64,000 bases of DNA from an uncultured Alphaproteobacteria bacterium. GTDB lineage: Bacteria; Pseudomonadota; Alphaproteobacteria; HIMB59; GCA-002718135. Of the stretch, positions 28,383 through 41,097 are shown piece after piece. The position numbers were made by a program, and so were the translations under genes. The stretch is taken from contig CACBDX010000003.1 of the NCBI GenBank assembly GCA_902538155.1, forward strand, positions 632-64,631. Direction: 5' to 3'. Within the stretch, counting starts at the first letter, position 1. Each line of letters begins with the position of its first letter. The notes under the pieces are model-generated. The model was not told the origin of the DNA and did no database searches. It saw only the letters and a program-made list of their open reading frames with translations.

Positions 28383-29542
28383 TGGACATACACGAATATC
28401 AAGCAAAAAAAATATTGTCCGATTTTGGTGTTAAAATTCCAACAGGTGGTATTGTTTATAGTCCAGAAAATGCAGAAAATAAAGCTAGAGAAATTGGTGG
28501 TTCAAAATGGGTTGTAAAAGCACAGATTCATTCTGGAGCAAGAGGTAAAGCTGGAGGGATAATTATTTGCAATTCTCCTCATGAAGTTGCTCTAGCAACT
28601 GAAAAACTTCTCGGAAAAAAATTAGTGACAAATCAAACTGGTGAAGAGGGCAAAATTGTAAATAGAATTTATATTGAAGAAGCAACAGATATTAAACATG
28701 AATTATATTTAGGATTGGTTTTTGATAGGCCTTCAGAGAGTATTATGGTTGTTGCATCAACTGAAGGTGGAATGAGTGTAGAAGAAATTTCCAGCGATAA
28801 ACCAGAAAGTATAATGAGATTAAAAATTGATGTTGCAGTAGGTATGAGAAAATTTCAAGCCAGAGAATTAGCTTTTGGTCTTGGAATAGAAACTGAATTA
28901 ATTTCAAAAGCTACTGATACAATTAGAGGTTGTTATAGAGCTTTCACTGATCTTGATGCAACAATGGTCGAGGTAAATCCTCTTGTAATTTCTAAACAAA
29001 ATGAAATTTTGGCTTTAGATTGTAAAATGAGTTTTGATAATAATGCTTTATTCAGAATGAATAATATCGCTGAACTTCGTGATAAAAGTCAGGAAAATCC
29101 TAATGAAGTTTATGCTTCAGATAGAGGAATGAATTACGTCAGCCTAAATGGGAATATTGGAAACATTATTAATGGAGCAGGCCTAGCTATGGCTTCAATG
29201 GACATGATAAAGTTAGCGGGTGGTGAACCTGCAAACTTTTTAGATGTTGGTGGAGGTGCAACTCCTGAGAAAATAGTTAAAGCTTTTAAATTAATTTCTA
29301 TGGATACAAAAGTTAAGGTAATTTTAGTTAATATTTTTGCAGGGATTAACAGATGTGATTGGGTTGCAGAAGGAATTGTTCAAGCTTTATCAAAAATTGA
29401 AATTAAACAACCTTTAGTTATACGTTTAGCTGGAACTAACGTCGAAAAGGGAAATGAAATACTTAAAAAAAGCAATATTAATTATATTGAAGCATCAACT
29501 TTAGAAGACGCAGCAAATAAAGCAGTAAAGGCTCTTGGATAA
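28382..29542 (+). CDS. mtkA: malate--CoA ligase (malate thiokinase) beta subunit
   Basis: MDIHEYQAK start, KMSFDNNALFR and NIFAGINRCDWVAEG. The last resembles MtkA rather than the SucC pattern NIFGGIVRCD. It follows mcl directly. Confidence 0.8.
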   Translation: MDIHEYQAKKILSDFGVKIPTGGIVYSPENAENKAREIGGSKWVVKAQIHSGARGKAGGIIICNSPHEVALATEKLLGKKLVTNQTGEEGKIVNRIYIEEATDIKHELYLGLVFDRPSESIMVVASTEGGMSVEEISSDKPESIMRLKIDVAVGMRKFQARELAFGLGIETELISKATDTIRGCYRAFTDLDATMVEVNPLVISKQNEILALDCKMSFDNNALFRMNNIAELRDKSQENPNEVYASDRGMNYVSLNGNIGNIINGAGLAMASMDMIKLAGGEPANFLDVGGGATPEKIVKAFKLISMDTKVKVILVNIFAGINRCDWVAEGIVQALSKIEIKQPLVIRLAGTNVEKGNEILKKSNINYIEASTLEDAANKAVKALG

Positions 29543-29544
29543 TA

Positions 29545-30441
29545 ATGTCTATAATCATTCATAAAAATACAAAGATTTTAGTTCAAGGTTTTACTGGAAA
29601 AATTGGAAGCTTTCATGCTGAAGAAATGATTAAGTATGGTTCAAATGTTGTTGGCGGGGTAACACCTGGTAAAGGTGGTATCACTCATTTAAATCTTCCT
29701 GTATTTAACACTGTCAAAGAAGCTGTTGATCAAACAGGAGCATCAACATCAATATTATTTGTTCCTCCAGCATTTGCAGCAGATTCTGTTATGGAAGCTG
29801 CTGATGCAGGTATTAAAACTTGTGTTGCTATTACTGACGGTATTCCTTCTCATGATATGGTAAAAATTAAAAGATTTATGAGAAGATATCCAAAAGATAA
29901 AAAAATGGGATTAGTAGGTCCGAATTGTGCAGGAATAATTAGCCCTGGTAAATCTATGTTAGGTATTATGCCTGGTCATATTTACAAAGAAGGTAAAATT
30001 GGAATAGTTAGTAGATCTGGCACTTTGGGATATGAAGCTGCACAACAACTTAAAGATTTGGAAATTGGTGTTTCAACAAGTGTAGGTATAGGAGGAGATC
30101 CAATAAATGGAAGTTCTTTTAGAGATATAATTGAAAAGTTTGAAAATGATGATGAAACTATTGCAGTTTTAATGATAGGTGAAATAGGTGGTCCACAAGA
30201 AGTTGAAGCTGGACAATTTGCTAAAGAAAATATGAGTAAACCGGTAATTGCGTATATAGCAGGACTAACTGCACCAAAAGGTCGTGTAATGGGGCATGCT
30301 GGCGCAATTGTTTCTGCTTATGGTGAAAGTGCAATAGAAAAAGTAGAACTTCTTAAAGAGTGTGGGGTTACAATTTCCAAAAACCCTTCTGTAATGGGTG
30401 AAACTGTAAAAAAAGTATTAGTAGAAAATAATTTGAATTAA
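29545..30441 (+). CDS. mtkB: malate--CoA ligase alpha subunit
   Basis: CoA-ligase alpha motifs VQGFTGK, GPNCAGII, SRSGTLGYE and the phosphohistidine loop GHAGAIV. Confidence 0.8.
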   Translation: MSIIIHKNTKILVQGFTGKIGSFHAEEMIKYGSNVVGGVTPGKGGITHLNLPVFNTVKEAVDQTGASTSILFVPPAFAADSVMEAADAGIKTCVAITDGIPSHDMVKIKRFMRRYPKDKKMGLVGPNCAGIISPGKSMLGIMPGHIYKEGKIGIVSRSGTLGYEAAQQLKDLEIGVSTSVGIGGDPINGSSFRDIIEKFENDDETIAVLMIGEIGGPQEVEAGQFAKENMSKPVIAYIAGLTAPKGRVMGHAGAIVSAYGESAIEKVELLKECGVTISKNPSVMGETVKKVLVENNLN

Positions 30442-30456
30442 TATAATTAAAAAATA

Positions 30457-30594
30457 ATGAAATTTTTATATAAAAATGAATTCTGGATGTTAATATTTTC
30501 TCTAGGTGTTCTTTATTGGTTATTTAATCCATCAGTCTTAACAACCTTAGTTATGATTGTGCCATTGCTATTGGCCGTATCTTCCCGTAAATAA
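30457..30594 (+). CDS. possible 45-aa membrane micro-protein (below the ORF-track cutoff)
   Basis: ATG at 30457 and TAA at 30592-30594. The translation is MKFLYKNEFWMLIFSLGVLYWLFNPSVLTTLVMIVPLLLAVSSRK, with two hydrophobic stretches. It sits in the largest non-coding gap of the window. Confidence 0.25.
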   Translation: MKFLYKNEFWMLIFSLGVLYWLFNPSVLTTLVMIVPLLLAVSSRK

Positions 30595-30649: not shown

Positions 30650-31213
30650 ATGAAATTATATCTTATTAGACATGCAGAGTCAGAAGCTAATGCAGCATCA
30701 GATTTAGATAATCCAACTTATTATTATGATGCAAGAATCACTCAAAGAGGAGTTGAGCAAGCAAAAAAATTAAATAATAGAATTAAAAATCTCAAATTTG
30801 ATAATTATTTTTGTTCCCCCCTAACAAGAACATTGGAAACATTCTCTATTGTTTTTCCATCTACTAAACCTGTAATTGAACCATTAATAAGAGAACATTT
30901 GTACCACTCATGTGATGTAGGAAGACAACCAAAAAAATTAAAAAAAGAATTTAATGATTTTGATTTTAATAATTTAAATGATTTTTGGTGGAATAATAAC
31001 AAACCTATTAATGAAAAAAAAATTATACAAGAGTCTCACAATGATATTAAAATGAGATTAAGGTCTTTTCTTCTATCTATCAAAAACCTTAATTTACAAA
31101 AAATTGTATTAGTCAGTCATGGTACATTCCTAAGTCAAATAACTGAATATATGCTGGATAACTGTGAGATATATGATTGTGAGTACAATGAGGTCTACGA
31201 AAAATTTTTTTAA
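30650..31213 (+). CDS. histidine-phosphatase (phosphoglycerate-mutase-like) family protein
   Basis: LIRHAESEAN (RH catalytic motif) and the distal VSHGTF motif. Confidence 0.8.
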   Translation: MKLYLIRHAESEANAASDLDNPTYYYDARITQRGVEQAKKLNNRIKNLKFDNYFCSPLTRTLETFSIVFPSTKPVIEPLIREHLYHSCDVGRQPKKLKKEFNDFDFNNLNDFWWNNNKPINEKKIIQESHNDIKMRLRSFLLSIKNLNLQKIVLVSHGTFLSQITEYMLDNCEIYDCEYNEVYEKFF

Positions 31214-31236
31214 TTTAATTCTTGATAAATAAAAAT

Positions 31237-32004
31237 CTAAAACATCTCATTTATTATTTTATTTAATTTTTGTGTTACTCTATCAATTATTTTTTTCCCT
31301 ATCTGTGCATTGGATTTTCTAGGATCTCCAATAATTCCACTTTTACTTAATTCTTTAGTTACCCAAGCTTTCTTAATATTTTTTTCATAAGAAATGGTTT
31401 TAGATGATAAATAATCGGAAGATAATCTATGTTTAGAAATTTTAGATAGCCTAACTAGGTTTGGAAATAAATATAACATAATAGATGTTTCAAATTCTCC
31501 ACCGTGATAACCAAAGTCTTTTTCTTTACTTGATATAATTCCTTTAAATTGATCAAATAAAAAATATGTGCCTTTTACTATGTTTATCTTAAATTCTGAT
31601 TTCAATTCTTTAGCAATAATATCTATATGGCTAATTTGTCCACCATGACTATTTAAAAGTAATATATTTTTAAATTTCAATTTACATACATTTTCTAAAA
31701 TTGATAAAGAGTGTGATATAAATTCTAATGAGTCAATACTTATAGTTCCTTCAAAATCTGTATGTTCAGCAGCTGAACCAAAATTTATTTCAGGCATAAT
31801 TAAATATTTATTTGAATTATATTTTTTATTGAATTCTAATAATATTCCTTCAATAATTTTTTTATCAGTATTTAATGGAAGATGCGGACCGTGTTGTTCT
31901 ATTGATGAAAATGGGAAAATTAAAACTGTTTTTCTATTTATTTTTTTAATTTCATTTGTTGTTAATTCTTCCCAAAAGTTTGTTAGCATTTTTTCATTAT
32001 ACAT
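31237..32004 (-). CDS. creatininase-family amidohydrolase (substrate unknown)
   Basis: SIEQHGPHLPLNTD, LNSHGGQ and HGGEFETS motifs of the creatininase/ArfB/MftE family. Confidence 0.85.
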   Translation of the reverse strand: MYNEKMLTNFWEELTTNEIKKINRKTVLIFPFSSIEQHGPHLPLNTDKKIIEGILLEFNKKYNSNKYLIMPEINFGSAAEHTDFEGTISIDSLEFISHSLSILENVCKLKFKNILLLNSHGGQISHIDIIAKELKSEFKINIVKGTYFLFDQFKGIISSKEKDFGYHGGEFETSIMLYLFPNLVRLSKISKHRLSSDYLSSKTISYEKNIKKAWVTKELSKSGIIGDPRKSNAQIGKKIIDRVTQKLNKIINEMF

Positions 32005-32017
32005 TTATAAGTAAATT

Positions 32018-32977
32018 ATGAAATCTTATTCTTTATGGATTGATAAAAAAAAACAAGCTAAAATTTATCAAAAAAAACTTGTTTACAATAAAAATAACAA
32101 AACAGTTTTAGTTAAAACTATTTACTCAGGTATTAGCAAGGGAACTGAAAAATTAGTTTCATCTAAAAGCGTAAGTAAGGATCAATTTGAATTAATGAAA
32201 GCCCCTTTTCAAGAGGGTTCTTTTAATTTACCTATAAAATACGGTTATATAAATATTGGGAATATTATCGATGGTCCAAGAAAATATATAAATAAAAAAA
32301 TATTTAGTCTTTATCCTCATCAAGATTTATATGAAATTTCTATTCAAAATTTAATTTTTTTACCAAAAGGAAATTTGAGAAAATATATTCTAACTGCAAA
32401 TATGGAAACAGCAATTAATATCTTTTGGGATGCTCAATCTAAAAGTAATAACAAAATTCTAATTGTAGGACTTGGCTCTGTAGGATTATTAACTGCATTT
32501 TTTTTTAAAATTAATGGATATAAAAATGTTTATGTTTTTGATAATAATAAAAATAAAAGAAAAATTGCCAACTATTTAGGATTAAATTTTATTGATATAA
32601 GAAAGATTGAGAAAATAGATGTAGCAATAAACACTACAGCTAATTATAAAGTTTTAAATTCTTTAATGGAAAAATTATCTATCGAAGGAAAAATAGTAGA
32701 AGCTAGTTGGTATGGTAAAAATAAAGGAGAAGTTGCCTTAGGTGGGTATTTTCATTCTAAAAGATTAAAAATTATTAGTTCACAGGTATCTAAAATACCA
32801 AAATACATGAAAAATAAATATGATTTTGAGGGGAGATTAAAATTAGCAATTAAATCTTTAAAAAATTCAAAATTAGAAAAATTAATTACTAGTGAAAGTA
32901 ATTTTTTTAATTTAGAAAAAGATTACTATAAAATCCTTCAAAATAAGGATACAATAATGCATCTAATTAAATATTAA
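32018..32977 (+). CDS. MDR-superfamily (alcohol-dehydrogenase-like) oxidoreductase lacking the catalytic zinc ligands
   Basis: GroES-like N-terminal region and the Rossmann motif IVGLGSVGL. No GHE/Cys zinc motifs are visible. Confidence 0.65.
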   Translation: MKSYSLWIDKKKQAKIYQKKLVYNKNNKTVLVKTIYSGISKGTEKLVSSKSVSKDQFELMKAPFQEGSFNLPIKYGYINIGNIIDGPRKYINKKIFSLYPHQDLYEISIQNLIFLPKGNLRKYILTANMETAINIFWDAQSKSNNKILIVGLGSVGLLTAFFFKINGYKNVYVFDNNKNKRKIANYLGLNFIDIRKIEKIDVAINTTANYKVLNSLMEKLSIEGKIVEASWYGKNKGEVALGGYFHSKRLKIISSQVSKIPKYMKNKYDFEGRLKLAIKSLKNSKLEKLITSESNFFNLEKDYYKILQNKDTIMHLIKY

Positions 32978-32979
32978 TT

Positions 32980-33378
32980 ATGTATTCGATAAAAGTAAGA
33001 GAAAATATTCTAATAGCTCATTCTTTACCTGGAGAAGTATTTGGACCAGCTCAAAATATGCATGGAGCTACATATTTAGTAGATGCAGAATTTTTCACTG
33101 ATAAACTTAATAAATACAATATAATTATGGATTTAGGAATAGTGTCCACAACTTTAAAAGATATTCTTAAAATATATAATTATCAAAATTTAGATGAGAT
33201 TGGTGAATTTAAGGGAAAAATTACCTCAACAGAGTTTTTAGCAGAGGATATTTGTAATAAGATCTTGAATAGACTAAGAAATGAATTCTCTGAAGATTAC
33301 AAATCTTTAAAAAAAATTAAAATAACTTTGCAAGAATCAAATGTTGCATGGGCATCATATGAAAAAGAGGTTATCTAA
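32980..33378 (+). CDS. 6-pyruvoyl-tetrahydropterin synthase (PTPS/QueD)-fold protein with a non-canonical active site
   Basis: 132 aa. IAHSLPG...NMHGATYLVDAEF...IMDLG follows the PTPS-fold pattern, but HGH is replaced by HGA and the catalytic Cys is absent. Confidence 0.7.
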   Translation: MYSIKVRENILIAHSLPGEVFGPAQNMHGATYLVDAEFFTDKLNKYNIIMDLGIVSTTLKDILKIYNYQNLDEIGEFKGKITSTEFLAEDICNKILNRLRNEFSEDYKSLKKIKITLQESNVAWASYEKEVI

Positions 33379-34405
33379 AAATAAATCTGATATTTATTTT
33401 GTTTATCCAGGAAATATTAATGCAAAAACTGGAGGATATATTTATGAAAAAAATATCCTAGAATATGCAAATGAAAGAGATTTAAATATTAGACCAATTG
33501 CGTTAAGTGAAAATTATCCTTTTCCTACAAATAACGATATAAAATATTTTCTAAAAATTTTAGATGAAATTGATCCTGACTCTAAAATTATAATCGATGG
33601 ATTAGCTTTAGAAGGAATGTATTCCATTTTTAAAAAAATACTTACTTATAATGTTATCGCTCTAATACATCATCCTTTATATCTTGAATTTAAAGGTCAA
33701 AGGTCAAAAAATTTCTTGAGATTAGAAAAAGAAAATTTCAAAAAAATAAATAAATTTATTGTGACTTCTAAAAATACAAAAAATTTATTAATAAATGAAT
33801 TCAAGGTTCTAAATAATAAAATATCTGTAGTTGAACCTGGAATAGAAAGACTAGTAAATTATAATTTTAAAAAAAATCGTAAAATTCATTTTTTAACATG
33901 TGGAAGTATAATAAATAGAAAAAATTATCTTTTTTTATTAAAAGTTTTAAAGCCTTTAGATAATTTTATTTTAGAAATTGTTGGTGATACTACAAGAGAT
34001 ATAGGTTATTACAAAAAACTCAAAAAATTTATTTCTAAAAATTCAATGAACAGAAAAATAATATTCCACGGTACTATTTCAGATACAAAATTAGCTAAAT
34101 TATATTCTAAAACAGATTGTTACATTTCGGTAAGTAAATATGAAGGTTTTGGAATGTCTTTAGCAAATGCATTAATAATTAAAAAACCAATTATAAGCTT
34201 TTTTACTGATACTATCTTAAATACACTAGGAAAAAAGGGTGTTATTTATTTCAAAAAATTTGAAGTAAATGATCTTAGAAATATAATCATTAAAAATATA
34301 TTAAATAAAAAAAATTTTAATAAACTAAATATTGATATTCATAAAAACAAAAGATATCTTCTTACTCCTCTAGAGTCAGCTAAGAAATTTGTTAATTTAA
34401 TTTAA
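33341..34405 (+). CDS. family-1 (GT-B) glycosyltransferase
   Basis: The C-terminal-domain motif EGFGMSLANALIIKKPII is of the E-x7-E type. The start is uncertain; the ATG at 33359 is also possible. Confidence 0.75.
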   Translation: MLHGHHMKKRLSKNKSDIYFVYPGNINAKTGGYIYEKNILEYANERDLNIRPIALSENYPFPTNNDIKYFLKILDEIDPDSKIIIDGLALEGMYSIFKKILTYNVIALIHHPLYLEFKGQRSKNFLRLEKENFKKINKFIVTSKNTKNLLINEFKVLNNKISVVEPGIERLVNYNFKKNRKIHFLTCGSIINRKNYLFLLKVLKPLDNFILEIVGDTTRDIGYYKKLKKFISKNSMNRKIIFHGTISDTKLAKLYSKTDCYISVSKYEGFGMSLANALIIKKPIISFFTDTILNTLGKKGVIYFKKFEVNDLRNIIIKNILNKKNFNKLNIDIHKNKRYLLTPLESAKKFVNLI

Positions 34406-34406
34406 T

Positions 34407-35195
34407 ATGCATGAATTTCAAAATAAATGGTTAAATCTTAGAGAATCCGTCGATAGAAATTCAAGAAACAAAAGAATATTATATTTAATTAATAAATTTT
34501 TTAAAAATAAAAAAAATATTAGAATAGTTGATTTGGGTTCAGGTGCTGGATCTAATTATAGATTTCTAAAGTCACGATTATTAAATAATCAATATTGGTC
34601 TTTTGTAGACATATCACATCAATCTACAAATTATTTTAAAAAAAATATAAAATTATCTTCTAAAATAAAAAAAACTAATTTTAAAATTGTTGATGTAATT
34701 AATAATCTAGAAAAAATAAATTTTAATGATTATAATTTAGTTACTGGATCTGCTTTTTTAGATATTCTTCCAAAAACATGGTTTAAAAATTTTCATAAAT
34801 TAAATCTTGATACAGAAATTGTCTACTTTGCCTTAAATTATAACGGTAATTTTAAATTTTTTCCAAAACACAAGGATGATAAAAAAATTCTTAATTTTTT
34901 TAATAAAGATCAAAAATCTGACAAAGGAGTAGGGGAAGTGGCCGTTGGACCAGATTGTACTGAATTAATAAATAATGTATTTGAAAGAACCCACACAACA
35001 TATGTTTTAGACTCTACATGGAACGTTAGTAAAAATTATGAATTTCAAATTTATTTCTTAAATTTTTGTAGAGAAATTATTCAAAAAAATAAACTTAACT
35101 TAGATGATTGGTTAAAATTTCGTTTAAAATTTATTAAAGAAAAAAATTCCAGATTTATTTTAAATAATACAGATTTTTTAGCTATTAAGAAATAA
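34407..35195 (+). CDS. class I SAM-dependent methyltransferase
   Basis: Motif I IVDLGSGAGSN and an acidic motif II region. It begins 1 nt after the glycosyltransferase stop. Confidence 0.7.
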   Translation: MHEFQNKWLNLRESVDRNSRNKRILYLINKFFKNKKNIRIVDLGSGAGSNYRFLKSRLLNNQYWSFVDISHQSTNYFKKNIKLSSKIKKTNFKIVDVINNLEKINFNDYNLVTGSAFLDILPKTWFKNFHKLNLDTEIVYFALNYNGNFKFFPKHKDDKKILNFFNKDQKSDKGVGEVAVGPDCTELINNVFERTHTTYVLDSTWNVSKNYEFQIYFLNFCREIIQKNKLNLDDWLKFRLKFIKEKNSRFILNNTDFLAIKK

Positions 35196-36011
35196 ATTAA
35201 CTATAATTTCATTTTCTAATTCATTAAAATTATGTTTTGGTCTGATAGCTTTATTGAGATTTGAGATTTTTTTTAAATTTAATGAATTAATTCCGGAACC
35301 TATTAATATTGGTGCAATCATAAATTGAAGAATATCAATATATTTATTATTTATTAATTCTGAAATAGTTTTTGATCCTCCCTCTACTAAAATATTTTTA
35401 TAATTAAGTTTTTTTATTTGCGTAATAAAGTTTTTAGTAAAATTTTTTTCTTTTAATCTTATTATTGTGGTATTATTTAATTTAATTTTTTTATTACTTT
35501 TTGTAAAAATTATATTTTCATTACCGTCATTAAATATTTTATATTTATTATTTAGCGAAAGACTGCCATCAATAATAATTCTTTTTGGATTTGTGCCCTT
35601 TATTTTTCTTGTTGTTAATAGAGGATCGTCTTTTTTAATGGTATTTGAACCTACAATAATTGCATCACTGATACTTCGTAAACAATGTAGATAAATAATA
35701 CTCTTTGGATTATTTATGTAATGTGAATTTCCATTATTTAATGCAATTCTACCATCAATACTTTGTCCTATCTGAGCTATAACTAATTTTTTGTTTTTTC
35801 TTAATATTGGAATCAGGATATTTAAGATTGACTGATAAAATTTACTTATATTAATTTTAGATACCAGATTTTTATTTTTTATGTAAAAGTTACTTTTTGT
35901 TTTTGATGATAAAGAAATACTATTTTTTTTAACCAATAAATATAAATCATTATCCTTTTTAGAATTTTTTATGAAATTTAATAAAATTCCTATATTTTTT
36001 GATGTAATCAT
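35178..36011 (-). CDS. RibD C-terminal-domain (DHFR-fold) reductase with no deaminase domain
   Basis: IAQIGQSIDGRIAL, LRSISDAIIVGSNTIKKDDPLLTTR and NPKRIIIDG match the RibD_C pattern. No HAE/PCxxC deaminase motif is present. Confidence 0.8.
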   Translation of the reverse strand: MITSKNIGILLNFIKNSKKDNDLYLLVKKNSISLSSKTKSNFYIKNKNLVSKINISKFYQSILNILIPILRKNKKLVIAQIGQSIDGRIALNNGNSHYINNPKSIIYLHCLRSISDAIIVGSNTIKKDDPLLTTRKIKGTNPKRIIIDGSLSLNNKYKIFNDGNENIIFTKSNKKIKLNNTTIIRLKEKNFTKNFITQIKKLNYKNILVEGGSKTISELINNKYIDILQFMIAPILIGSGINSLNLKKISNLNKAIRPKHNFNELENEIIVNLFLNS

Positions 36012-36047
36012 TTGTTTTTATTACAATTATATCTATATAAAGTTTTC

Positions 36048-37169
36048 ATGAGTTTCAAATCTAATACAGGAACTATTATAGATAGGGCAATTAACGAACT
36101 CAGAACTGGAAGACCCTTAATAATTCAGAATAACAAGGAATACTGGATGTTCTTTAATATAGAGCATTCCCAAAGTAAAATTTTTAACCAATTCAATAAG
36201 CACTTAATTAATGAAAAATATCTACTTATTACTAAACAAAAAGCTCAATCAATTTTTAATAAGAATATTAAAAGTAATGTTTATTTCGAGATAAATCCTA
36301 AAACAGATGTAAATCAAATAATAAATTTATTTGTCAATCCTCTTAGCAATAATAAAGTAATTAAATTTACCAATATTAAAAAATTCAAAGCTAAAAATTT
36401 TCATAATGTTTGTATTGATCTTTCCAAAAATGCTAAAATGATACCATCGCTAGTTTTTAAAAAAATTAATAAAAAATATTATAAAAATATAAATGAATTT
36501 GGATTTAAAAATGGAATTTTAATATTCGATTATAAAGATTTATTGAGGCAAAATGAATTAATTTGTGAAAGTATCAAATTAGTTTCTAGCGCAAAAGTTC
36601 CACTACCAAAAAATGAAAATTCTAATTTTAAAATATTTAAATCATATATTGGATCTGATAAACATGTAGCAATTATTGTTAACCCAAAAAAAATAAATAG
36701 AAAATCTGTTAATTTAAGAATACACTCAGCTTGTTTTACAGGTGATATTTTTCATTCTTTAAAATGTGATTGTGGTGAACAATTAAATCAATCAATTAAT
36801 TACATGGTTAGAAATAATGGCGGAATTATATTATATTTAGAACAAGAAGGTAGAGGAATAGGATTAGCTAATAAAATGAGAGCCTATTCTCTTCAAGCAA
36901 GGGGTATGGATACAATAGATGCCGATCATAATATTGGTTTTTTAGACGATGAAAGAGATTTTAATATTGCAGCTAGAATACTTAAATTATTAAAAATAAA
37001 TAAAGTTAATCTTATTACAAATAACAAAAATAAAATTAATTCTATTAAGAAAGCTGGAATTAAAGTCGAAAATCAAATAAATACAAAGCCAACTTTAAAT
37101 AAATTTAATAAAAATTATTTTAAAACAAGAGTCAAAAAAGCCGGGTACGGTCTTAAACTAGTAGTATAA
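36048..37169 (+). CDS. degenerate RibB-like domain fused to GTP cyclohydrolase II
   Basis: The C-terminal half has HSACFTGD, KCDCG (zinc Cys triad), EQEGRGIGLANKMRAYSLQ and LITNN. The N-terminal half starts like DHBP synthase but lacks the DDEDRENEGD loop. I prefer the ATG at 36048 to the TTG at 36012. Confidence 0.85.
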   Translation: MSFKSNTGTIIDRAINELRTGRPLIIQNNKEYWMFFNIEHSQSKIFNQFNKHLINEKYLLITKQKAQSIFNKNIKSNVYFEINPKTDVNQIINLFVNPLSNNKVIKFTNIKKFKAKNFHNVCIDLSKNAKMIPSLVFKKINKKYYKNINEFGFKNGILIFDYKDLLRQNELICESIKLVSSAKVPLPKNENSNFKIFKSYIGSDKHVAIIVNPKKINRKSVNLRIHSACFTGDIFHSLKCDCGEQLNQSINYMVRNNGGIILYLEQEGRGIGLANKMRAYSLQARGMDTIDADHNIGFLDDERDFNIAARILKLLKINKVNLITNNKNKINSIKKAGIKVENQINTKPTLNKFNKNYFKTRVKKAGYGLKLVV

Positions 37170-37171
37170 TT

Positions 37172-37615
37172 ATGAAAAAAATTCCTAAGATAAAACTTCA
37201 ATTAACTAATGATAATGAGTTTGATTCATCTAAATTAAAAAACAAAACAGTTTTATTCTTTTACCCTAAGGCGTTGACTGGTGGATGCTCAGTAGAAGTC
37301 GCAGACTTTCAGAAATATTTAACAAAATTTAATAAAATTGGCTTTGATGTAATAGGAGCCTCTAAAGATCCTATTGATCGGAATAAAAAATTTTCTGATA
37401 AGTATAAATTGAAATATCCACTTGGTTCGGATGAAGGGAAGAGTTGTGATAAACTTGGCATTTGGATTGAAAAATCCATGTACGGTAGGAAATATTTTGG
37501 AATAGATAGATCTACATTTGTAATGGATAAAAATGGAAAAATTTTAAATTCTTGGAATAAAGTCAAAGTTAAAGGCCATGCTGAAGAAGTTTATAATTTT
37601 TGTAAGAGCCAGTAA
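37172..37615 (+). CDS. bcp: peroxiredoxin, Bcp/PrxQ type
   Basis: Active site PKALTGGC (PxxxTxxC), 147 aa. It begins 2 nt after the cyclohydrolase gene. Confidence 0.85.
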   Translation: MKKIPKIKLQLTNDNEFDSSKLKNKTVLFFYPKALTGGCSVEVADFQKYLTKFNKIGFDVIGASKDPIDRNKKFSDKYKLKYPLGSDEGKSCDKLGIWIEKSMYGRKYFGIDRSTFVMDKNGKILNSWNKVKVKGHAEEVYNFCKSQ

Positions 37616-37619
37616 ATTT

Positions 37620-38513
37620 TTATTTAATTTTTCCTATTTCTTTTTCTCTTTTGATTACAAATAAACCACTTAAGGTAATAATTATAGCGCCTATTATCAT
37701 ATTATAAGTTGGAGTTTCACCTAGTATTAAATATCCAAAAATCATCCCAAATATAATTACACTATATCTTGCAGAGGCCGTTAATGAGAGTGGTGCATAA
37801 AAAACTGTTAATACTGAAAATAAATAGCCGAACAAAACAAATATACTAGAAACAAGAATATAATTTACATCTTCACCGCTTACTTGATAACCAAAAATTA
37901 TTGAACCCAAGCCTGCAAATCCAGTAATCAACAAAGCAGTCACAAATGTAATTTCAACACTATTTGATTTAGTCGCTAAACTCTTTGTAGCAATATCTCT
38001 AATAGTTAAAAAAATAGCAGCTAAAATTGGTAAAACTAAAAGATAATTAAATTGAAAATTTTGTGGATTTACAACAACTAGGACACCTAAGAATCCAATT
38101 ATGACTGCACACCATCTTCTTATACCAACTTTCTCTCCCAAAAAAAGAAAAGCAAATATTGTGACAAAGAAAGGATTAGTCATTAAAAGTGTGTAAACCT
38201 CAGATATTGGAAGTAATATTAATCCAACCAAAAAAAATAATGCCGTTAAAACTTCATACAAACCTCTTATATGAAAACTTTTGATTGAGAGTATTTTAAT
38301 TAAATTCTTTTTTTCGAAAAAAATTAAATATAAACCTAATAGACTTGATGTTACTAAACCTCTCAAAAAAATTACAGAATATAATGAATTGTCATCACCT
38401 ATATTTTTTACAACAAGTTTGACATAACTATCATTTATAGAGAATGATAATTGGCCAGCCATCATGAAAAGTACACCTATCGTCCCAACTGAAAATAAAA
38501 TCTTGCTTTTCAT
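37620..38513 (-). CDS. DMT-superfamily (EamA-like) transporter
   Basis: 297 aa with 10 TM segments in two EamA halves. Confidence 0.8.
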   Translation of the reverse strand: MKSKILFSVGTIGVLFMMAGQLSFSINDSYVKLVVKNIGDDNSLYSVIFLRGLVTSSLLGLYLIFFEKKNLIKILSIKSFHIRGLYEVLTALFFLVGLILLPISEVYTLLMTNPFFVTIFAFLFLGEKVGIRRWCAVIIGFLGVLVVVNPQNFQFNYLLVLPILAAIFLTIRDIATKSLATKSNSVEITFVTALLITGFAGLGSIIFGYQVSGEDVNYILVSSIFVLFGYLFSVLTVFYAPLSLTASARYSVIIFGMIFGYLILGETPTYNMIIGAIIITLSGLFVIKREKEIGKIK

Positions 38514-40221: not shown

Positions 40222-41097
40222 ATGATTAATAAAAAAATTTTGTACTGTTCATTGTCATTAATTTTGGGTGGAATTTTTTTTGTAATACATGATGCAATAA
40301 TTAATCATTTAACTGAAGTAGAGTTTAAGTTTTATCATCATGTATTCTTTGGAAGTCCTTGGTTAATTATAATATTTATATATTTATACTTCACTGGAAA
40401 TATTAAAACTTATTTGGGGTCATCAAATTATTCAATTTTAATGTTAAGAGGTTTTTTATTTTTACCTTTACCTTATATGTTATTTATAAGTTTACAAAAT
40501 ATTTCATTACCTGAATGGACAACTCTAAATATGATCTCCCCTATTTTAGGATCAATTCTAGCAATTTTATTTTTAGGAGAAAAAATAAATTATGTAACAA
40601 CCACTGCAATTTTTTTAGGATTTATAGGTGTGATATTTATTATCCAGCCAGGTTTTCAAGATTTTAGCTTTTATTATTTATTTCCTGTTTATGGTGCATT
40701 TACTTTGGCTTTGCAAAGTTTTTTAGCAAATAAATATTCTAATATTACAACCACTCTAGGATTTTTTGTATATGGATTAATACCTATTAATTTGGTTTCT
40801 GTTATTTTATTTATATTTAATCCATTAATAAATTATCAACTATTAATCATTTCATTATTTGCCGGTTTAATCGTTTTATTAGGTGTTTATCTTGTAACTT
40901 ATGCGTTTCAAAATTCTAAAAATCATTTTTCATCAATATTTGCATTATTTTATTTGCAAATATTATGGTCATTAATAATTGGTATTTTATTTTTTAATGA
41001 ATATCTTAATTTTTTTGCATTGATAGGAGCTTTTTTAATTGTATTAAGTGGGATTTTATCTCTTCAGGCTCAAAAAAAACAACTGAATGCTTTATGA
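40222..41097 (+). CDS. DMT-superfamily (EamA-like) transporter, tandem paralogue 1
   Basis: 291 aa with 10 TM segments, collinear with the next gene. Confidence 0.75.
   Translation: MINKKILYCSLSLILGGIFFVIHDAIINHLTEVEFKFYHHVFFGSPWLIIIFIYLYFTGNIKTYLGSSNYSILMLRGFLFLPLPYMLFISLQNISLPEWTTLNMISPILGSILAILFLGEKINYVTTTAIFLGFIGVIFIIQPGFQDFSFYYLFPVYGAFTLALQSFLANKYSNITTTLGFFVYGLIPINLVSVILFIFNPLINYQLLIISLFAGLIVLLGVYLVTYAFQNSKNHFSSIFALFYLQILWSLIIGILFFNEYLNFFALIGAFLIVLSGILSLQAQKKQLNAL

What the first reader, a model, noticed from the sequence alone, without database searches (positions are those of the whole stretch)
31237..37615. Orphan seven-gene cluster for a modified GTP-derived pyrimidine/pteridine metabolite (best candidate for an undescribed system)
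Seven genes occupy about 6 kb. The junctions are a 13-nt spacer, a 2-nt spacer, an overlap, a 1-nt spacer, an 18-nt convergent overlap and a 36-nt spacer. The genes are:
- a creatininase-family amidohydrolase (31237-32004, minus strand)
- a zinc-less MDR dehydrogenase (32018-32977)
- a PTPS/QueD-fold protein (32980-33378)
- a GT1 glycosyltransferase (33341-34405)
- a SAM methyltransferase (34407-35195)
- a stand-alone RibD_C reductase (35178-36011, minus strand)
- a RibB-like/GTP cyclohydrolase II fusion (36048-37169), with bcp 2 nt downstream

GCH II plus a RibD_C reductase are the opening steps of riboflavin synthesis. The creatininase family includes the archaeal FAPy deformylase ArfB, which acts on GTP-derived ribosylaminopyrimidines. 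PTPS-fold enzymes act on GTP-derived pterins. However, no deaminase, lumazine synthase, riboflavin synthase or intact DHBP synthase is present here, whereas a glycosyltransferase and a methyltransferase are. The logic fits diversion of a GTP-derived diaminopyrimidine or pteridine intermediate into a reduced, glycosylated and methylated product, such as a cofactor, pigment, signal or compatible solute. I cannot match it to any characterised pathway. It is not toxoflavin-like because the gene set differs. It is not a pterin-glycoside pathway of the cyanobacterial type, which uses GCH I.
Basis: partly seen in the sequence, partly recalled or inferred. Interest (0 to 1): 0.8.

Follow-up and report, generated by a model that had tools for sequence, protein, structure and literature searches.

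The report
Uncharacterised GTP-derived glycoside pathway cluster
A tightly packed set of eight genes in the abundant ocean bacterium SAR11 appears to turn a GTP-derived riboflavin precursor into an unknown sugar-bearing, methylated pterin-like molecule; the same gene set is widespread in bacteria and salt-loving archaea, and its product has never been identified.

Summary
All seven ORFs, their junctions and their domain assignments check out. The window is SAR11 (Pelagibacterales).

Three corrections apply:
- **bcp is not part of the cluster.** It is adjacent in only 8/18 SAR11 loci.
- **A His_Phos_1 phosphatase (30650-31213) is an eighth member.** It is adjacent in three of the four SAR11 arrangements (11/18 loci).
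- **The cluster is not wholly undescribed.** It is the 'PTPS-IV' (FGPAQ motif, SCO6650-type) neighbourhood, noticed before but with no known product.

The core genes are MDR, PTPS-IV, GT4 and MT, plus a dedicated RibD_C and a GTP cyclohydrolase. This core recurs in Alpha- and Gammaproteobacteria, Actinobacteria, Acidobacteria and haloarchaea, with RibD_C-MDR and GT4-MT fusions. In one haloarchaeal plasmid the archaeal GTP cyclohydrolase IIa sits next to the MDR gene in place of RibA.

Pelagibacter also carries a canonical ribD-ribE-ribB-ribH operon, but the GTP cyclohydrolase II (GCH II) half of its RibBA is dead. The cluster's 'dead RibB + live GCH II' protein is therefore probably SAR11's only working GCH II, and it probably also feeds riboflavin synthesis.

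Best model, which is inferred and not shown: GTP → diaminopyrimidine → ribityl (RibD_C) → re-oxidation (MDR) → pterin ring closure (PTPS-IV) → glycosylation, methylation and dephosphorylation.

The parts
30650..31213 (+). His_Phos_1 (histidine-phosphatase family) protein. Probable eighth member: it would remove the 5'/3' phosphate from the ribityl- or pterin-phosphate intermediate.
   Evidence: Pfam His_Phos_1, E 6e-23. The nearest solved structures are CobC alpha-ribazole phosphatases, E 4e-7. It is adjacent to the cluster in 11/18 SAR11 loci. In two other SAR11 arrangements it has moved to just downstream of GCH II. Precedent: a histidine-family phosphatase is the specific 5-amino-6-ribitylaminopyrimidinedione-5'-phosphate phosphatase of Aquifex (PMC12051542). 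Its role here is inferred.
31237..32004 (-). Creatininase-family metal amidohydrolase. Proposed formamidase for 2-amino-5-formylamino-6-ribosylaminopyrimidinone 5'-phosphate (ArfB/BrbF-like).
   Evidence: Pfam Creatininase, E 3e-55. It is below the cut-off of every NCBIfam equivalog: MftE 106 bits against a cut-off of 172, and ArfB 29 bits against 180. It is present in 18/18 SAR11 loci and in 13/52 non-SAR11 loci, including the Streptomyces and Haloarcula versions. Those versions sit in lineages with formyl-producing cyclohydrolases (Streptomyces; haloarchaeal GCH IIa seen in Natrarchaeobaculum). Bacterial precedent: BrbF (PMC9478397). The activity here is inferred.
32018..32977 (+). Zinc-less MDR-superfamily dehydrogenase of the polyol/secondary-alcohol dehydrogenase fold. 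It has an NAD-type acidic residue after the GxGxxG motif. Proposed oxidation of the ribityl 2'-OH.
   Evidence: Weak ADH_zinc_N / Glu_dehyd_C / BchC hits. No sequence match in PDB. The AF2 model (pLDDT 84.8) matches threonine, glucose, sorbitol, xylitol and arabinitol dehydrogenases and TarJ ribulose-5-P reductase. Family invariants are S40, G42, T43, E44, Y75, G76, Y77, P100 and H101, in place of the Cys/His zinc ligands, and D/E follows strand beta-2. It is fused to the cluster-type RibD_C in P0221.
32980..33378 (+). PTPS-IV (T-fold, SCO6650-type) protein. It keeps the pterin/guanine-face-binding residues but lacks the catalytic Cys, the third zinc His and the Asp-His pair of PTPS/QueD.
   Evidence: Pfam PTPS, E 2e-20. 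E 1.2e-33 to SCO6650, PDB 3d7j. It carries the FGPAQ signature that defines PTPS-IV (PMC5445326). Family invariants are H14, F21-G-P-A-Q25, H28, A30, D35, D51, N70-L-D72, T84, E85 and E119.
33341..34405 (+). GT-B glycosyltransferase (CAZy GT4-type; Pfam Glycos_transf_1 with a Glyco_transf_4 N-domain).
   Evidence: Pfam hits at E 1e-17 and 1e-5. PGAP names the orthologues 'glycosyltransferase family 4 protein'. It overlaps the PTPS-IV gene by 38 nt here and by 29 nt in L001. It is fused to the methyltransferase in Halomonas/Vreelandella (the 652-aa family).
34407..35195 (+). Class I SAM-dependent small-molecule methyltransferase of an uncharacterised subfamily.
   Evidence: Only weak Pfam and NCBIfam hits. 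The AF2 model (pLDDT 94) has a Rossmann methyltransferase fold. The nearest PDB entries are small-molecule N- and O-methyltransferases, with TM at most 0.63. It is present in 51/52 non-SAR11 loci.
35178..36011 (-). Stand-alone RibD_C pyrimidine reductase paralogue with an extra N-terminal region of about 70 aa. It is predicted to reduce the 2,5-diamino (non-deaminated) ribosylaminopyrimidine.
   Evidence: Pfam RibD_C, E 2e-31. It is below the cut-offs of all NCBIfam riboflavin equivalogs. At the position that is Lys in bacterial RibD (2HXV, 9NO2, 8DQ9) and Asn in the archaeal diaminopyrimidine reductases (2AZN, 6P8C), it has Gln. Across the 58 aligned cluster-family sequences (window included) the count is Q 52, H 6, K 0. 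The canonical Pelagibacter RibD keeps Lys and is only distantly related, E 5e-8.
36048..37169 (+). Long-form GTP cyclohydrolase II: an intact GCH II domain (residues about 180-373) behind a degenerate RibB-like N-domain that has no DHBP-synthase catalytic loop.
   Evidence: Pfam GTP_cyclohydro2, E 2e-48. The best NCBIfam model is PRK08815, at 267 bits against a cut-off of 464. Cys54, Cys65, Cys67, Tyr105 and Arg128 (E. coli numbering) are all kept. For the N-domain, hhalign against RibB gives probability 89.5%. The same architecture occurs alone in other marine alphaproteobacteria. The canonical Pelagibacter RibBA has a dead GCH II half.

Best explanation
Positions 30650-37169 hold the SAR11 version of the conserved but uncharacterised 'PTPS-IV' pathway. 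It branches from the first riboflavin intermediate and makes a small, soluble, decorated 2-amino-4-oxo heterocycle, most likely a methylated pterin glycoside.

**Proposed steps**
1. [quoted passage not shown] The catalytic residues are intact (shown). It probably also serves riboflavin synthesis (inferred).
2. The creatininase-family enzyme clears any 5-formyl intermediate (inferred from ArfB and BrbF).
3. The dedicated Gln-type RibD_C reduces the ribosyl group to ribityl with NADPH, keeping the 2-amino group (inferred from the specificity residue and the absence of a deaminase).
4. The zinc-less, NAD-type MDR dehydrogenase re-oxidises the 2'-hydroxyl. This gives the same 2'-keto compound that GTP cyclohydrolase I or Chlamydia TrpF reach by Amadori rearrangement (inferred).
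5. The metal-poor T-fold PTPS-IV binds the 2-amino-4-oxo face and closes or processes the ring, giving a 7,8-dihydroneopterin-3'-phosphate-like pterin (inferred).
6. GT4 and the methyltransferase decorate it, and the histidine phosphatase removes the phosphate (inferred).

**Other lineages.** In most other bacteria and in haloarchaea the same core is joined to a CDP-alcohol phosphatidyltransferase, an MprF-like flippase domain, cytochrome b561/YceI and glucan genes. This points to a membrane or periplasmic form. SAR11 has none of these genes within about 10 kb of the cluster.

**Probabilities.**
- A dedicated branch pathway from the GCH II product to a glycosylated, methylated 2-aminopyrimidine- or pteridine-type product: about 0.7.
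- The specific reduce-then-re-oxidise route to a pterin: about 0.35.
For: **Gene unit**
- 18/18 SAR11 loci keep all seven genes, in four different genomic contexts.
- Among 52 non-SAR11 loci found through the MDR gene: PTPS-IV 50, MT 51, GT4 47, RibD_C 43, GCH II 27.
- The taxa include Rhizobiales, Rhodobacterales, Halomonas, Thioalkalivibrio, Granulosicoccus, Acidobacteria, Streptomyces, Microbacterium, Methylosinus and haloarchaea.
- Fusions: RibD_C-MDR and GT4-MT.

**GTP origin**
- Archaeal GTP cyclohydrolase IIa (337 bits, above its cut-off) overlaps the MDR gene start in Natrarchaeobaculum.
- The Streptomyces copy is a Met-type RibA placed next to a creatininase gene.

**Retention of the 2-amino group**
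- There is no deaminase in the cluster.
- The specificity position of RibD_C is Gln or His, never Lys.
- PTPS-IV keeps the T-fold Thr-Glu and Glu residues.

**Re-oxidation idea**
- The MDR protein has an NAD-type acidic residue.
- Its model has a polyol-dehydrogenase fold and matches TarJ, which acts at C2 of ribitol-5-phosphate (the TarJ chemistry is from my own knowledge).
- It is fused to the reductase.
- The GCH II product is known to be convertible to dihydroneopterin phosphate (PMC4161248).

**Enzyme precedents**
- Creatininase family: BrbF (PMC9478397).
- Phosphatase family: Aquifex histidine-family phosphatase (PMC12051542).
- Known pteridine glycosyltransferases are placed in the GT-1 / AviGT-4-like family (PMC5683033), which from my own knowledge is the same broad GT-B class as this enzyme.

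**Separation from riboflavin synthesis**
- Pelagibacter has a canonical ribD(Lys)-ribE-ribB-ribH-nusB operon elsewhere.
Against: - No product is known for any member of the cluster family, and no enzyme of the back half has been assayed.
- Most organisms that carry the cluster are expected to have GTP cyclohydrolase I (general knowledge, not tested here). A second, roundabout route to a neopterin-type pterin therefore needs a reason.
- The position the MDR enzyme oxidises is a guess. The fold search only says 'secondary alcohol or polyol dehydrogenase'.
- PTPS-IV lacks any obvious catalytic apparatus.
- A published aside links PTPS-IV to coenzyme F420 instead (PMC5041015).
- The creatininase gene is present alongside a Tyr-type GCH II, which should not need a deformylase. 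Its role in SAR11 is therefore unexplained.
- GCH II lies within 8 kb in only 27/52 non-SAR11 loci, and the same long-form protein occurs alone elsewhere. Its adjacency in SAR11 could be partly historical.
- I could not show that the cluster and the canonical rib operon lie in the same genome. I showed only that both occur in Pelagibacter-type contigs.
Confidence: 0.35

Rival explanations
1. The same dedicated branch pathway, but the product is not a pterin. The ribitylamino-diaminopyrimidine stays open-chain or forms another ring, such as an 8-ribityl-pteridine or lumazine-like ring, or a vicine-like pyrimidine glycoside. It is then oxidised elsewhere by the MDR enzyme, glycosylated and methylated.
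For: All the evidence for a GTP-derived, non-deaminated, reduced intermediate applies equally here. RibD_C reduction normally commits the molecule to the ribityl series, as in riboflavin and F420 (established pathway knowledge). The histidine phosphatase precedent acts on a ribitylaminopyrimidine phosphate. A plant GCH II-derived pyrimidine glucoside, vicine, exists (my own knowledge, not checked here).
Against: This reading leaves the RibD_C-MDR fusion and the pterin-type T-fold protein without a specific role. No such metabolite is known from bacteria as far as my searches reached.
Confidence: 0.3
2. There is no single pathway. GCH II, the creatininase (BrbF-like), RibD_C and the histidine phosphatase are SAR11's housekeeping or alternative riboflavin genes. 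MDR-PTPS-GT4-MT is an unrelated operon that merely sits between them.
For: The canonical Pelagibacter RibBA has a dead GCH II half, so the cluster's GCH II is probably needed for riboflavin. The long-form GCH II occurs alone in other marine alphaproteobacteria. A creatininase-family formamidase is essential for riboflavin synthesis in S. meliloti and Brucella. A histidine-family phosphatase completes riboflavin synthesis in Aquifex.
Against: The Gln-type RibD_C forms its own clade. It co-occurs with the four-gene core in 43/52 distant loci, including accessory plasmids, and is fused to the MDR protein. It is translationally coupled (4-nt overlap) to cluster genes in Thiodictyon. Pelagibacter already has a complete Lys-type RibD. 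The archaeal cyclohydrolase IIa is coupled to the MDR gene. The creatininase gene is adjacent to the core in SAR11, Halomonas, Thioalkalivibrio, Streptomyces and Haloarcula.
Confidence: 0.1
3. In SAR11 the front half of the cluster is a GTP-cyclohydrolase-I-independent supply of the pterin moiety for folate or for a pterin-dependent hydroxylase. The GT4 and MT enzymes make only a storage or export form.
For: Pelagibacterales are predicted to be extensively folate-auxotrophic from standard gene sets (PMC13408713). Such predictions would miss a non-canonical pterin route. Chlamydia replaces FolE with RibA plus an isomerase.
Against: The same cluster occurs in many organisms expected to have folE (general knowledge), often on accessory plasmids. 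The GT4 and MT genes are among the most conserved members, which does not fit a folate precursor. I could not examine folE, folB, folK or folP in SAR11 genomes.
Confidence: 0.07
4. The SAR11 product, like that inferred for other lineages, ends up as a phosphodiester-linked lipid head group or envelope substituent. The coupling enzymes would be encoded elsewhere in the genome.
For: Within 8 kb of the core in the 52 non-SAR11 loci: CDP-alcohol phosphatidyltransferase in 31, an MprF-like flippase domain in 26, cytochrome b561 in 16 and MdoH in 11. MdoG and YceI also recur in these neighbourhoods. RibD and the CDP-alcohol transferase overlap by 4 nt in Thiodictyon.
Against: None of these families is found in the 64-kb window or within 8 kb of the core in the 18 SAR11 loci with at least 8 kb on each side. 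SAR11 has a soluble phosphatase instead.
Confidence: 0.05
5. The cluster belongs to coenzyme F420 / deazaflavin biosynthesis, as suggested in an unpublished remark about PTPS-IV.
For: [quoted passage not shown] The front-end enzymes resemble the archaeal riboflavin/F420 early steps.
Against: FO synthesis needs the deaminated uracil form, yet the cluster lacks a deaminase and its reductase is of the non-Lys type. None of the cluster proteins matched F420-pathway families in Pfam or NCBIfam, and reading the window's other ORFs by eye suggested none. SAR11 is not known to make F420 (my own knowledge).
Confidence: 0.02

Closest known systems
PTPS-IV / SCO6650-SCO6655 neighbourhood of Streptomyces coelicolor (COG0720 subfamily IV)
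   Same: The window protein carries the FGPAQ signature and matches SCO6650 (PDB 3d7j) at E 1e-33. A Streptomyces plasmid holds the same set: CDP-alcohol transferase, MDR, PTPS-IV, GT4, MT, flippase-like protein, creatininase and a Met-type RibA. The GCH II linkage of PTPS-IV was already noted (PMC5445326).
   Different: SAR11 has a Tyr-type long-form GCH II rather than the short Met-type. It lacks the membrane genes and adds a histidine phosphatase. No function is established for either version. From memory, not checked here: SCO6655 makes the formylated pyrimidine, and SCO6650 lacks zinc and the catalytic triad.
Archaeal riboflavin/F420 front end (ArfA GCH IIa/III, ArfB deformylase, ArfC reductase) and bacterial BrbF
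   Same: The logic is the same: cyclohydrolase, then a creatininase-family deformylase, then reduction of the still-2-amino pyrimidine. The reductase has an amide residue (Gln) where the archaeal enzymes have Asn. A haloarchaeal version uses ArfA itself. BrbF shows that the creatininase family does this reaction in alphaproteobacteria.
   Different: The creatininase reaches only 29 bits on the ArfB model, against a cut-off of 180. I could not compare it with BrbF because I had no sequence. The pathway continues into MDR, PTPS-IV, GT4 and MT instead of a deaminase and lumazine synthase.
Canonical bacterial riboflavin genes, including the RibBX / separate RibA arrangement of Proteobacteria
   Same: The GCH II domain is fully intact and of the long-form type whose nearest NCBIfam model is PRK08815. 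The Pelagibacter rib operon carries RibB fused to a dead RibA-like domain. The cluster's GCH II therefore probably supplies riboflavin synthesis too.
   Different: The cluster has no deaminase, DHBP synthase activity, lumazine synthase or riboflavin synthase. Its RibD_C is a separate non-Lys clade.
Chlamydia folate bypass (RibA + TrpF giving dihydroneopterin phosphate)
   Same: A pterin is made from the GCH II product rather than by GTP cyclohydrolase I (PMC4161248). My model reaches the same 2'-keto intermediate.
   Different: Chlamydia uses a direct Amadori isomerase. Here a reductase plus a dehydrogenase are proposed to achieve the same net isomerisation, and this is untested.
Cyanobacterial and Chlorobium pterin-glycoside pathways (GCH I, PTPS, sepiapterin reductase, pteridine glycosyltransferase)
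   Same: The logic is PTPS-fold protein plus side-chain oxidoreductase plus glycosyltransferase (PMC5683033). That the pteridine glycosyltransferases share the GT-B class of this GT4 enzyme is from my own knowledge.
   Different: There is no GCH I. The PTPS homologue lacks the Cys and the zinc triad. The oxidoreductase is an MDR enzyme, not an SDR. A methyltransferase is added. Orthology of the glycosyltransferases was not tested.
Toxoflavin (tox) cluster
   Same: It starts with a GCH II and contains a SAM methyltransferase (my own knowledge).
   Different: Toxoflavin needs a full RibD-type deaminase/reductase and the ToxC and ToxD proteins. None of these is here, and tox clusters have no PTPS-IV, MDR or GT4 (gene content; tox gene content from memory).

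Membership tests
PTPS-IV (COG0720 subfamily IV) gene neighbourhood | FGPAQ sequence signature in the PTPS homologue | tested here: met
   The motif F21-G-P-A-Q25 is present and invariant in the family. The signature is defined in PMC5445326.
PTPS-IV (COG0720 subfamily IV) gene neighbourhood | Close similarity to SCO6650 (PDB 3d7j) | tested here: met
   E 1.2e-33 over residues 1-129.
PTPS-IV (COG0720 subfamily IV) gene neighbourhood | GTP cyclohydrolase II (PF00925) in the neighbourhood | tested here: met
   GCH II lies 2.7 kb downstream in the window. It is present in 18/18 SAR11 loci and 27/52 other loci.
Canonical riboflavin biosynthesis (RibA, RibB, RibD, RibH, RibE) | GCH II catalytic residues (three zinc Cys, Tyr105, Arg128) | tested here: met
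   All five are kept.
Canonical riboflavin biosynthesis (RibA, RibB, RibD, RibH, RibE) | Functional DHBP synthase (RibB) domain | tested here: not met
   No Pfam DHBP_synthase hit, even at E 10. The fold is recognisable, but the DDEDRENEGD loop is deleted.
Canonical riboflavin biosynthesis (RibA, RibB, RibD, RibH, RibE) | Pyrimidine deaminase domain, and Lys at the reductase specificity position | tested here: not met
   There is no deaminase domain in the cluster. The position is Gln. The true Pelagibacter RibD has both features.
Canonical riboflavin biosynthesis (RibA, RibB, RibD, RibH, RibE) | Lumazine synthase and riboflavin synthase nearby | tested here: not met
   The cluster proteins match neither family, and reading the window's other ORFs by eye suggested none. 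In Pelagibacter they lie in a separate operon.
Archaeal ArfB / bacterial BrbF formamidase | Equivalog-level match to ArfB | tested here: not met
   28.8 bits against a cut-off of 180. The match is at family level only.
Archaeal ArfB / bacterial BrbF formamidase | Orthology to BrbF (SMc02977) and formamidase activity | not testable with these tools
   No BrbF sequence or model was available. Activity needs an assay (PMC9478397).
Pterin-glycoside pathway (cyanobacteria, Chlorobium) | GTP cyclohydrolase I, and a PTPS with the Cys + His3-zinc site | tested here: not met
   There is no GCH I in the cluster. The Cys, the third His and the Asp-His pair are lost from the PTPS homologue.
Pterin-glycoside pathway (cyanobacteria, Chlorobium) | Pteridine glycosyltransferase orthologue | not tested
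   PMC5683033 places the Chlorobium enzyme in the GT-1 / AviGT-4-like family. No pteridine glycosyltransferase sequence was available for comparison.
Toxoflavin cluster | ToxE-type deaminase/reductase plus ToxC and ToxD | tested here: not met
   The gene content of the cluster holds no such domains. The tox gene list is from memory.
Zinc-dependent MDR alcohol/polyol dehydrogenases | Catalytic zinc ligands (Cys, His, Glu or Cys) | tested here: not met
   The family alignment shows S40/T43/E44 and Y75-G-Y77 at the corresponding motifs (read by eye), with no conserved Cys or His ligands. The fold is nevertheless MDR.

The most novel reading that the evidence does not exclude
The PTPS-IV cluster encodes a previously unknown way of making a pterin. 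A ribosylaminopyrimidine reductase and an NAD-dependent dehydrogenase together replace the Amadori rearrangement of GTP cyclohydrolase I, and a metal-free T-fold protein closes the ring. The end product is a new methylated pterin glycoside.

In most bacteria and haloarchaea this product would be phosphodiester-linked by a CDP-alcohol transferase. It would then be flipped to the outer face of the membrane as a redox-active head group serviced by cytochrome b561.

SAR11 would keep only the soluble form. SAR11 would also run riboflavin synthesis and this pathway from a single GCH II, because its RibBA has split into two reciprocally degenerate proteins.
Probability: 0.1. Interest if true: 0.9.

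Novelty: new variant of a known kind. Interest (0 to 1): 0.62.

Why it matters
- **A costly cluster in a streamlined genome.** SAR11 is among the most abundant organisms in the ocean and has a minimal genome. Eight contiguous genes (about 6.5 kb) are kept intact across four divergent arrangements, which implies a product that matters to the cell. No one knows what that product is.
- **A widespread family with no known product.** The 61 non-SAR11 loci kept, plus plasmid hits, spanned at least four bacterial phyla and haloarchaea. Solving the chemistry once would annotate many genes that are now mislabelled 'zinc-binding alcohol dehydrogenase', '6-carboxytetrahydropterin synthase' and 'RibD family protein'.
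- **Open questions it makes testable.**
  - What PTPS-IV does.
  - Why creatininase-family enzymes travel with GTP cyclohydrolases in bacteria.
  - Whether predictions of vitamin auxotrophy in SAR11, which rest on canonical folate and pterin genes, miss a non-canonical pterin route.
- **A practical annotation point.** RibBA in SAR11 has split into reciprocally degenerate proteins (RibB-X and X-RibA). Automated 'ribBA' calls therefore overstate GCH II capacity in the rib operon.

Tried and rejected
- **Literature.** Searches for the gene combination, for SCO6650/SCO6655, for pterin glycosides, for halopterins and for CDP-alcohol transferase plus GCH II found no characterised product. Phillips et al. 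2012 (COG0720) was not held.
- **Halopterin lead.** From memory, Haloarcula marismortui makes phosphodiester-linked 'halopterins'. I could not verify this, so I left it as a lead only.
- **First locus search.** The search for related loci with a 60-sequence alignment failed because no stretch was conserved enough. A 14-sequence alignment worked.
- **Regulation.** An Rfam scan found no riboswitch in the cluster. The promoter/terminator scan was uninformative in this AT-rich DNA, with fewer hits than in shuffles.
- **Structures.** Fold searches with the MDR and MT models gave only generic class assignments.
- **Histidine phosphatase.** It does not specifically match the Aquifex enzyme. Its nearest structures are CobC.
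- **PTPS-IV on plasmids.** This search turned up only stand-alone Streptomyces paralogues next to regulators, which were not informative.
- **An apparent short-form SAR11 GCH II (P0315).** It proved to be a frameshifted long-read assembly of the same cluster.
- **Timeouts.** One cluster look-up timed out.
- **Same-genome test.** I could not scan a complete SAR11 genome, so 'both loci in one genome' and 'no other GCH II' remain untested.
- **Ideas rejected.**
  - Toxoflavin: the gene set is wrong.
  - An inositol-type pathway, suggested by weak IolM and IolN hits: it does not fit the GTP cyclohydrolase, RibD_C and T-fold linkage.
  - bcp as a cluster member.

Full report
**1. What is in the sequence**

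Their junctions, worked out from those coordinates, are:
- 13 nt between the divergent creatininase and MDR genes;
- 2 nt between MDR and PTPS;
- a 38-nt PTPS/GT overlap;
- 1 nt between GT and MT;
- an 18-nt convergent MT/RibD_C overlap;
- 36 nt between the divergent RibD_C and GCH II genes (ATG at 36048);
- 2 nt before bcp.

Pfam and NCBIfam confirm every domain call. No protein reaches the curated cut-off of any NCBIfam 'equivalog' model, so each belongs to a family but not to a named function.

The window is AT-rich (20-33% GC). It is 95-98% identical at protein level to single-cell genomes labelled Pelagibacteraceae or uncultured Alphaproteobacteria. It is therefore SAR11.

**2. Anatomy of the proteins**

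- **GCH II (36048-37169).**
  - All three zinc cysteines, Tyr105 and Arg128 (E. coli numbering) are kept.
  - Its N-terminal 180 residues are invisible to Pfam.
  - They align to RibB by profile comparison: probability 89.5%, E 2e-6, 160 columns. The acidic DDEDRENEGD loop is deleted, so this is a dead RibB domain.
- **RibD_C.**
  - It matches riboflavin reductases in PDB.
  - Bacterial RibD structures have Lys at the specificity position and the archaeal diaminopyrimidine reductases have Asn. This protein has Gln.
  - Across the 58 aligned cluster-family sequences (window included) the position is Q 52, H 6, K 0.
  - That this position discriminates the 2-oxo from the 2-amino substrate is from my own knowledge of the RibG and Rib7 structures.
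- **MDR protein.**
  - It has no sequence relative in PDB.
  - Its model (pLDDT 84.8) is a polyol / threonine / glucose dehydrogenase fold that also matches TarJ.
  - The zinc ligands are replaced, and a conserved D/E follows the second beta strand of the Rossmann fold. That residue is the usual mark of NAD rather than NADP use.
- **PTPS homologue.**
  - It is the PTPS-IV subfamily. It carries the FGPAQ signature and matches SCO6650 (3d7j) at E 1e-33.
  - Compared with QueD (sequence from memory), it has lost the catalytic Cys, the third zinc His and the Asp-His pair. It keeps the T-fold Thr-Glu and Glu residues that hold a 2-amino-4-oxo ring.
- **Glycosyltransferase and methyltransferase.**
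  - The glycosyltransferase is a GT4-type GT-B enzyme.
  - The methyltransferase model (pLDDT 94) is a small-molecule class I methyltransferase with no close structural relative.

**3. Is it a unit?**

*Within SAR11.*
- There are four arrangements with different flanking genes: the window; L001; L089; and L230.
- Protein identity between them is 48-73%.
- All keep the seven genes in the same order: 18 of 18 loci with enough flanking DNA.
- The histidine phosphatase gene (30650-31213 here) is adjacent in 11/18 loci. In L001 and L230 it sits about 20 nt after GCH II instead.
- bcp is adjacent only in the window's own clade (8/18).

*Outside SAR11.*
- In 52 non-SAR11 loci with at least 8 kb on each side, genes within 8 kb were: PTPS-IV 50, MT 51, GT4 47, RibD_C 43, GCH II 27, creatininase 13.
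- Carriers include Agrobacterium, Rhizobium, Roseovarius, Paracoccus, Halomonas/Vreelandella, Thioalkalivibrio, Marinobacter, Granulosicoccus and Acidobacteria.
- On plasmids, carriers include Streptomyces, Microbacterium, Methylosinus OB3b, Thiodictyon, Haloarcula and Natrarchaeobaculum.

*Fusions.* A RibD_C-MDR fusion protein exists (P0221). In Halomonas the GT4 and MT are one 652-aa protein.

*Non-orthologous replacement.*
- In Natrarchaeobaculum the gene overlapping the start of the MDR gene is archaeal GTP cyclohydrolase IIa, at 337 bits and above its cut-off.
- The Streptomyces copy is a short RibA with Met in place of Tyr105, placed next to a creatininase gene. From memory, this Met is the residue that makes SCO6655 a formylaminopyrimidine producer.
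- Three different ways of opening GTP are therefore attached to the same core. This is strong evidence that the pathway starts from GTP.

**4. Relation to riboflavin synthesis**

I scanned metagenomes for an AT-rich DRENEGD-coding motif. This recovered many low-GC ribB genes. One family is named by NCBI as 'Candidatus Pelagibacter sp.'. It lies in a classical operon, nrdR-ribD-ribE-ribB(A)-ribH-nusB, on a contig of 26.9% GC.

That RibD has the deaminase domain and the Lys. The cluster's RibD_C is therefore an extra paralogue, related to it only at E 5e-8.

The C-terminal 'RibA' half of the operon's RibBA has lost all three zinc cysteines, the EGRGIGL motif and Tyr105. From memory, this is the GCH II-dead 'RibBX' type. 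SAR11 thus has two reciprocally degenerate proteins: RibB-X in the rib operon and X-RibA in this cluster.

The long-form X-RibA also occurs on its own, without the cluster, in other marine alphaproteobacteria. The cluster's GCH II is therefore most likely the housekeeping enzyme as well, and the PTPS-IV pathway taps its product.

I could not prove two things. One is that no other GCH II exists in SAR11. The other is that both loci sit in one genome.

**5. Accessory genes elsewhere**

Within 8 kb of the core, the 52 non-SAR11 loci carry:

| Gene family | Loci |
|---|---|
| Divergent CDP-alcohol phosphatidyltransferase | 31 |
| MprF-like flippase domain | 26 |
| FkbM methyltransferase | 25 |
| Cytochrome b561 | 16 |
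| MdoH glucan glucosyltransferase (GT2) | 11 |

The counts come and the family assignments. In the clustering of all fetched loci, a PGAP-annotated 'sulfatase' family occurs in 25 loci, and YceI and MdoG also recur.

In Thiodictyon the order is MDR-PTPS-GT4-MT-cyt b561-RibD-CDP-alcohol transferase on one strand, with a 4-nt RibD/transferase overlap. This suggests a membrane-bound or periplasmic end product in those organisms.

None of these families is in the window or near the SAR11 clusters.

**6. How it most likely works**

*Shown.*
- The gene unit.
- The intact GCH II site.
- The non-Lys reductase clade.
- The zinc-less NAD-type MDR protein.
- The PTPS-IV signature and its lost catalytic residues.
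- The fusions.
- The cyclohydrolase replacements.
- The separate canonical rib operon.

*Inferred.*
1. GCH II makes the diaminopyrimidine ribotide.
2. The creatininase-family enzyme removes any residual formyl group.
   - Precedents are ArfB and the bacterial BrbF, which is essential for riboflavin synthesis in S. meliloti and Brucella.
   - Its need alongside a Tyr-type GCH II is unexplained.
3. RibD_C reduces the ribosyl group to ribityl.
4. The MDR enzyme re-oxidises the 2'-OH. This gives exactly the keto-amine that GTP cyclohydrolase I, or Chlamydia TrpF acting on the RibA product, reaches by Amadori rearrangement.
5. PTPS-IV closes the ring, giving a dihydroneopterin-phosphate-like pterin.
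6. GT4, MT and the phosphatase finish the molecule. A histidine-family phosphatase acting on a ribitylaminopyrimidine phosphate has a precedent in Aquifex.

I put about 0.7 on 'a dedicated branch pathway to a decorated 2-aminopyrimidine- or pteridine-type product'. I put about 0.35 on the specific pterin route. The main rival (0.3) keeps the branch but not the pterin ring.

**7. Comparison with what is known**

- **Not the riboflavin pathway.** It has no deaminase, DHBP synthase, lumazine synthase or riboflavin synthase.
- **Not toxoflavin.** The gene set is wrong.
- **Not the cyanobacterial or Chlorobium pterin-glycoside pathway.** It has no GCH I, and the PTPS homologue lacks the catalytic site. 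The pteridine glycosyltransferases are placed in the GT-1 / AviGT-4-like family, which from my own knowledge is the same broad GT-B class.
- **It is the PTPS-IV neighbourhood.**
  - This was already noticed in Streptomyces and in a neighbourhood-network study.
  - One review ascribes PTPS-IV to F420 synthesis on unpublished grounds.
  - A 2026 review of bacterial pterins does not mention the cluster.
- I found no paper that names a product.

**8. Verdict**

The finding is real and is a coherent, widely conserved, functionally unknown pathway. Three points need correction:
- the boundaries of the cluster;
- prior notice of it in the literature;
- the role of its GCH II, which is probably SAR11's housekeeping GCH II rather than a dedicated duplicate.

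Novelty: a new variant within GTP-derived pteridine/pyrimidine metabolism, with unknown chemistry. Interest: 0.62.

Noticed in passing
L227 10001-11059 (Pelagibacter rib operon) versus window 36048-37169: SAR11's RibBA seems to have split its functions between two reciprocally degenerate proteins. The rib-operon protein keeps RibB but has a RibA-like half with no zinc cysteines, no EGRGIGL motif and no Tyr105. The cluster protein keeps RibA but has a RibB-like half with no catalytic loop. Automatic 'ribBA' annotation would mislead here.
   Followed up: yes
L085, L086, L088, L092, L093 and many of L024-L084 (for example L093 13503-15851): Outside SAR11 the core cluster travels with a divergent CDP-alcohol phosphatidyltransferase, an MprF-like flippase domain, an FkbM methyltransferase, cytochrome b561/YceI, a PGAP-annotated 'sulfatase' with no Pfam hit, and MdoG/MdoH glucan genes. 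This suggests a membrane or periplasmic form of the product.
   Followed up: partly
L094 9237-10984 (Natrarchaeobaculum plasmid) and L088 10015-10452 (Haloarcula pHMA411): In L094, archaeal GTP cyclohydrolase IIa overlaps the MDR gene start, and the cluster is cut short by an IS5 transposase. In Haloarcula, the ORF between the MDR and GT4 genes starts like a PTPS (…FVAQHYL…PGPEGDPH…) and then turns into low-complexity sequence, as if frameshifted.
   Followed up: partly
window 22598-25651 (+): A 1017-aa ORF that, read by eye, looks like a three-part fusion: an N-terminal kinase/phosphotransferase-like region, an M23-peptidase-like segment (…HLHFQI…) and a C-terminal class III aminotransferase. 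It was not run through any family search.
   Followed up: no
window 20820-22617 (-): Two overlapping genes that, read by eye, look like a pseudouridine-5'-phosphate glycosidase and a ribokinase-family (pseudouridine) kinase. They sit next to a nucleoside hydrolase-like gene (19807-20823).
   Followed up: no
window 37620-38513 (-), 40222-41097 (+), 41118-41996 (+): Three EamA-family transporter genes lie within 4.5 kb, and the last two are tandem paralogues (tblastn E 1e-9 and 1e-7 to the first). One abuts bcp directly downstream of the cluster, but it is conserved only in the window's own clade.
   Followed up: partly
window 30457-30594 (+): A 45-codon ORF encoding a hydrophobic peptide (MKFLYKNEFWMLIFSLGVLYWLFNPSVLTTLVMIVPLLLAVSSRK). 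It sits in the 208-nt gap between the succinyl-CoA synthetase alpha-like gene and the phosphatase gene. It could be a small membrane protein or could be chance.
   Followed up: no
L095 9001-9426 and L096 9001-9399 (Streptomyces plasmids): Stand-alone PTPS-IV paralogues without the rest of the cluster, next to sigma-70 and BTAD-type regulators.
   Followed up: partly
L233 3567-8678: A long-read metagenome contig carries the same cluster with the MDR, PTPS and GCH II genes each split into fragments. This is probably assembly frameshifts rather than pseudogenes. It produced a spurious 'short-form' GCH II in the protein database.
   Followed up: yes
window 27444-30441 (+): Directly upstream of the cluster are a malyl-CoA/citrate-lyase-beta-like gene and a succinyl-CoA-synthetase-like beta/alpha pair (read by eye). 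This context is not shared by the other SAR11 arrangements.
   Followed up: partly
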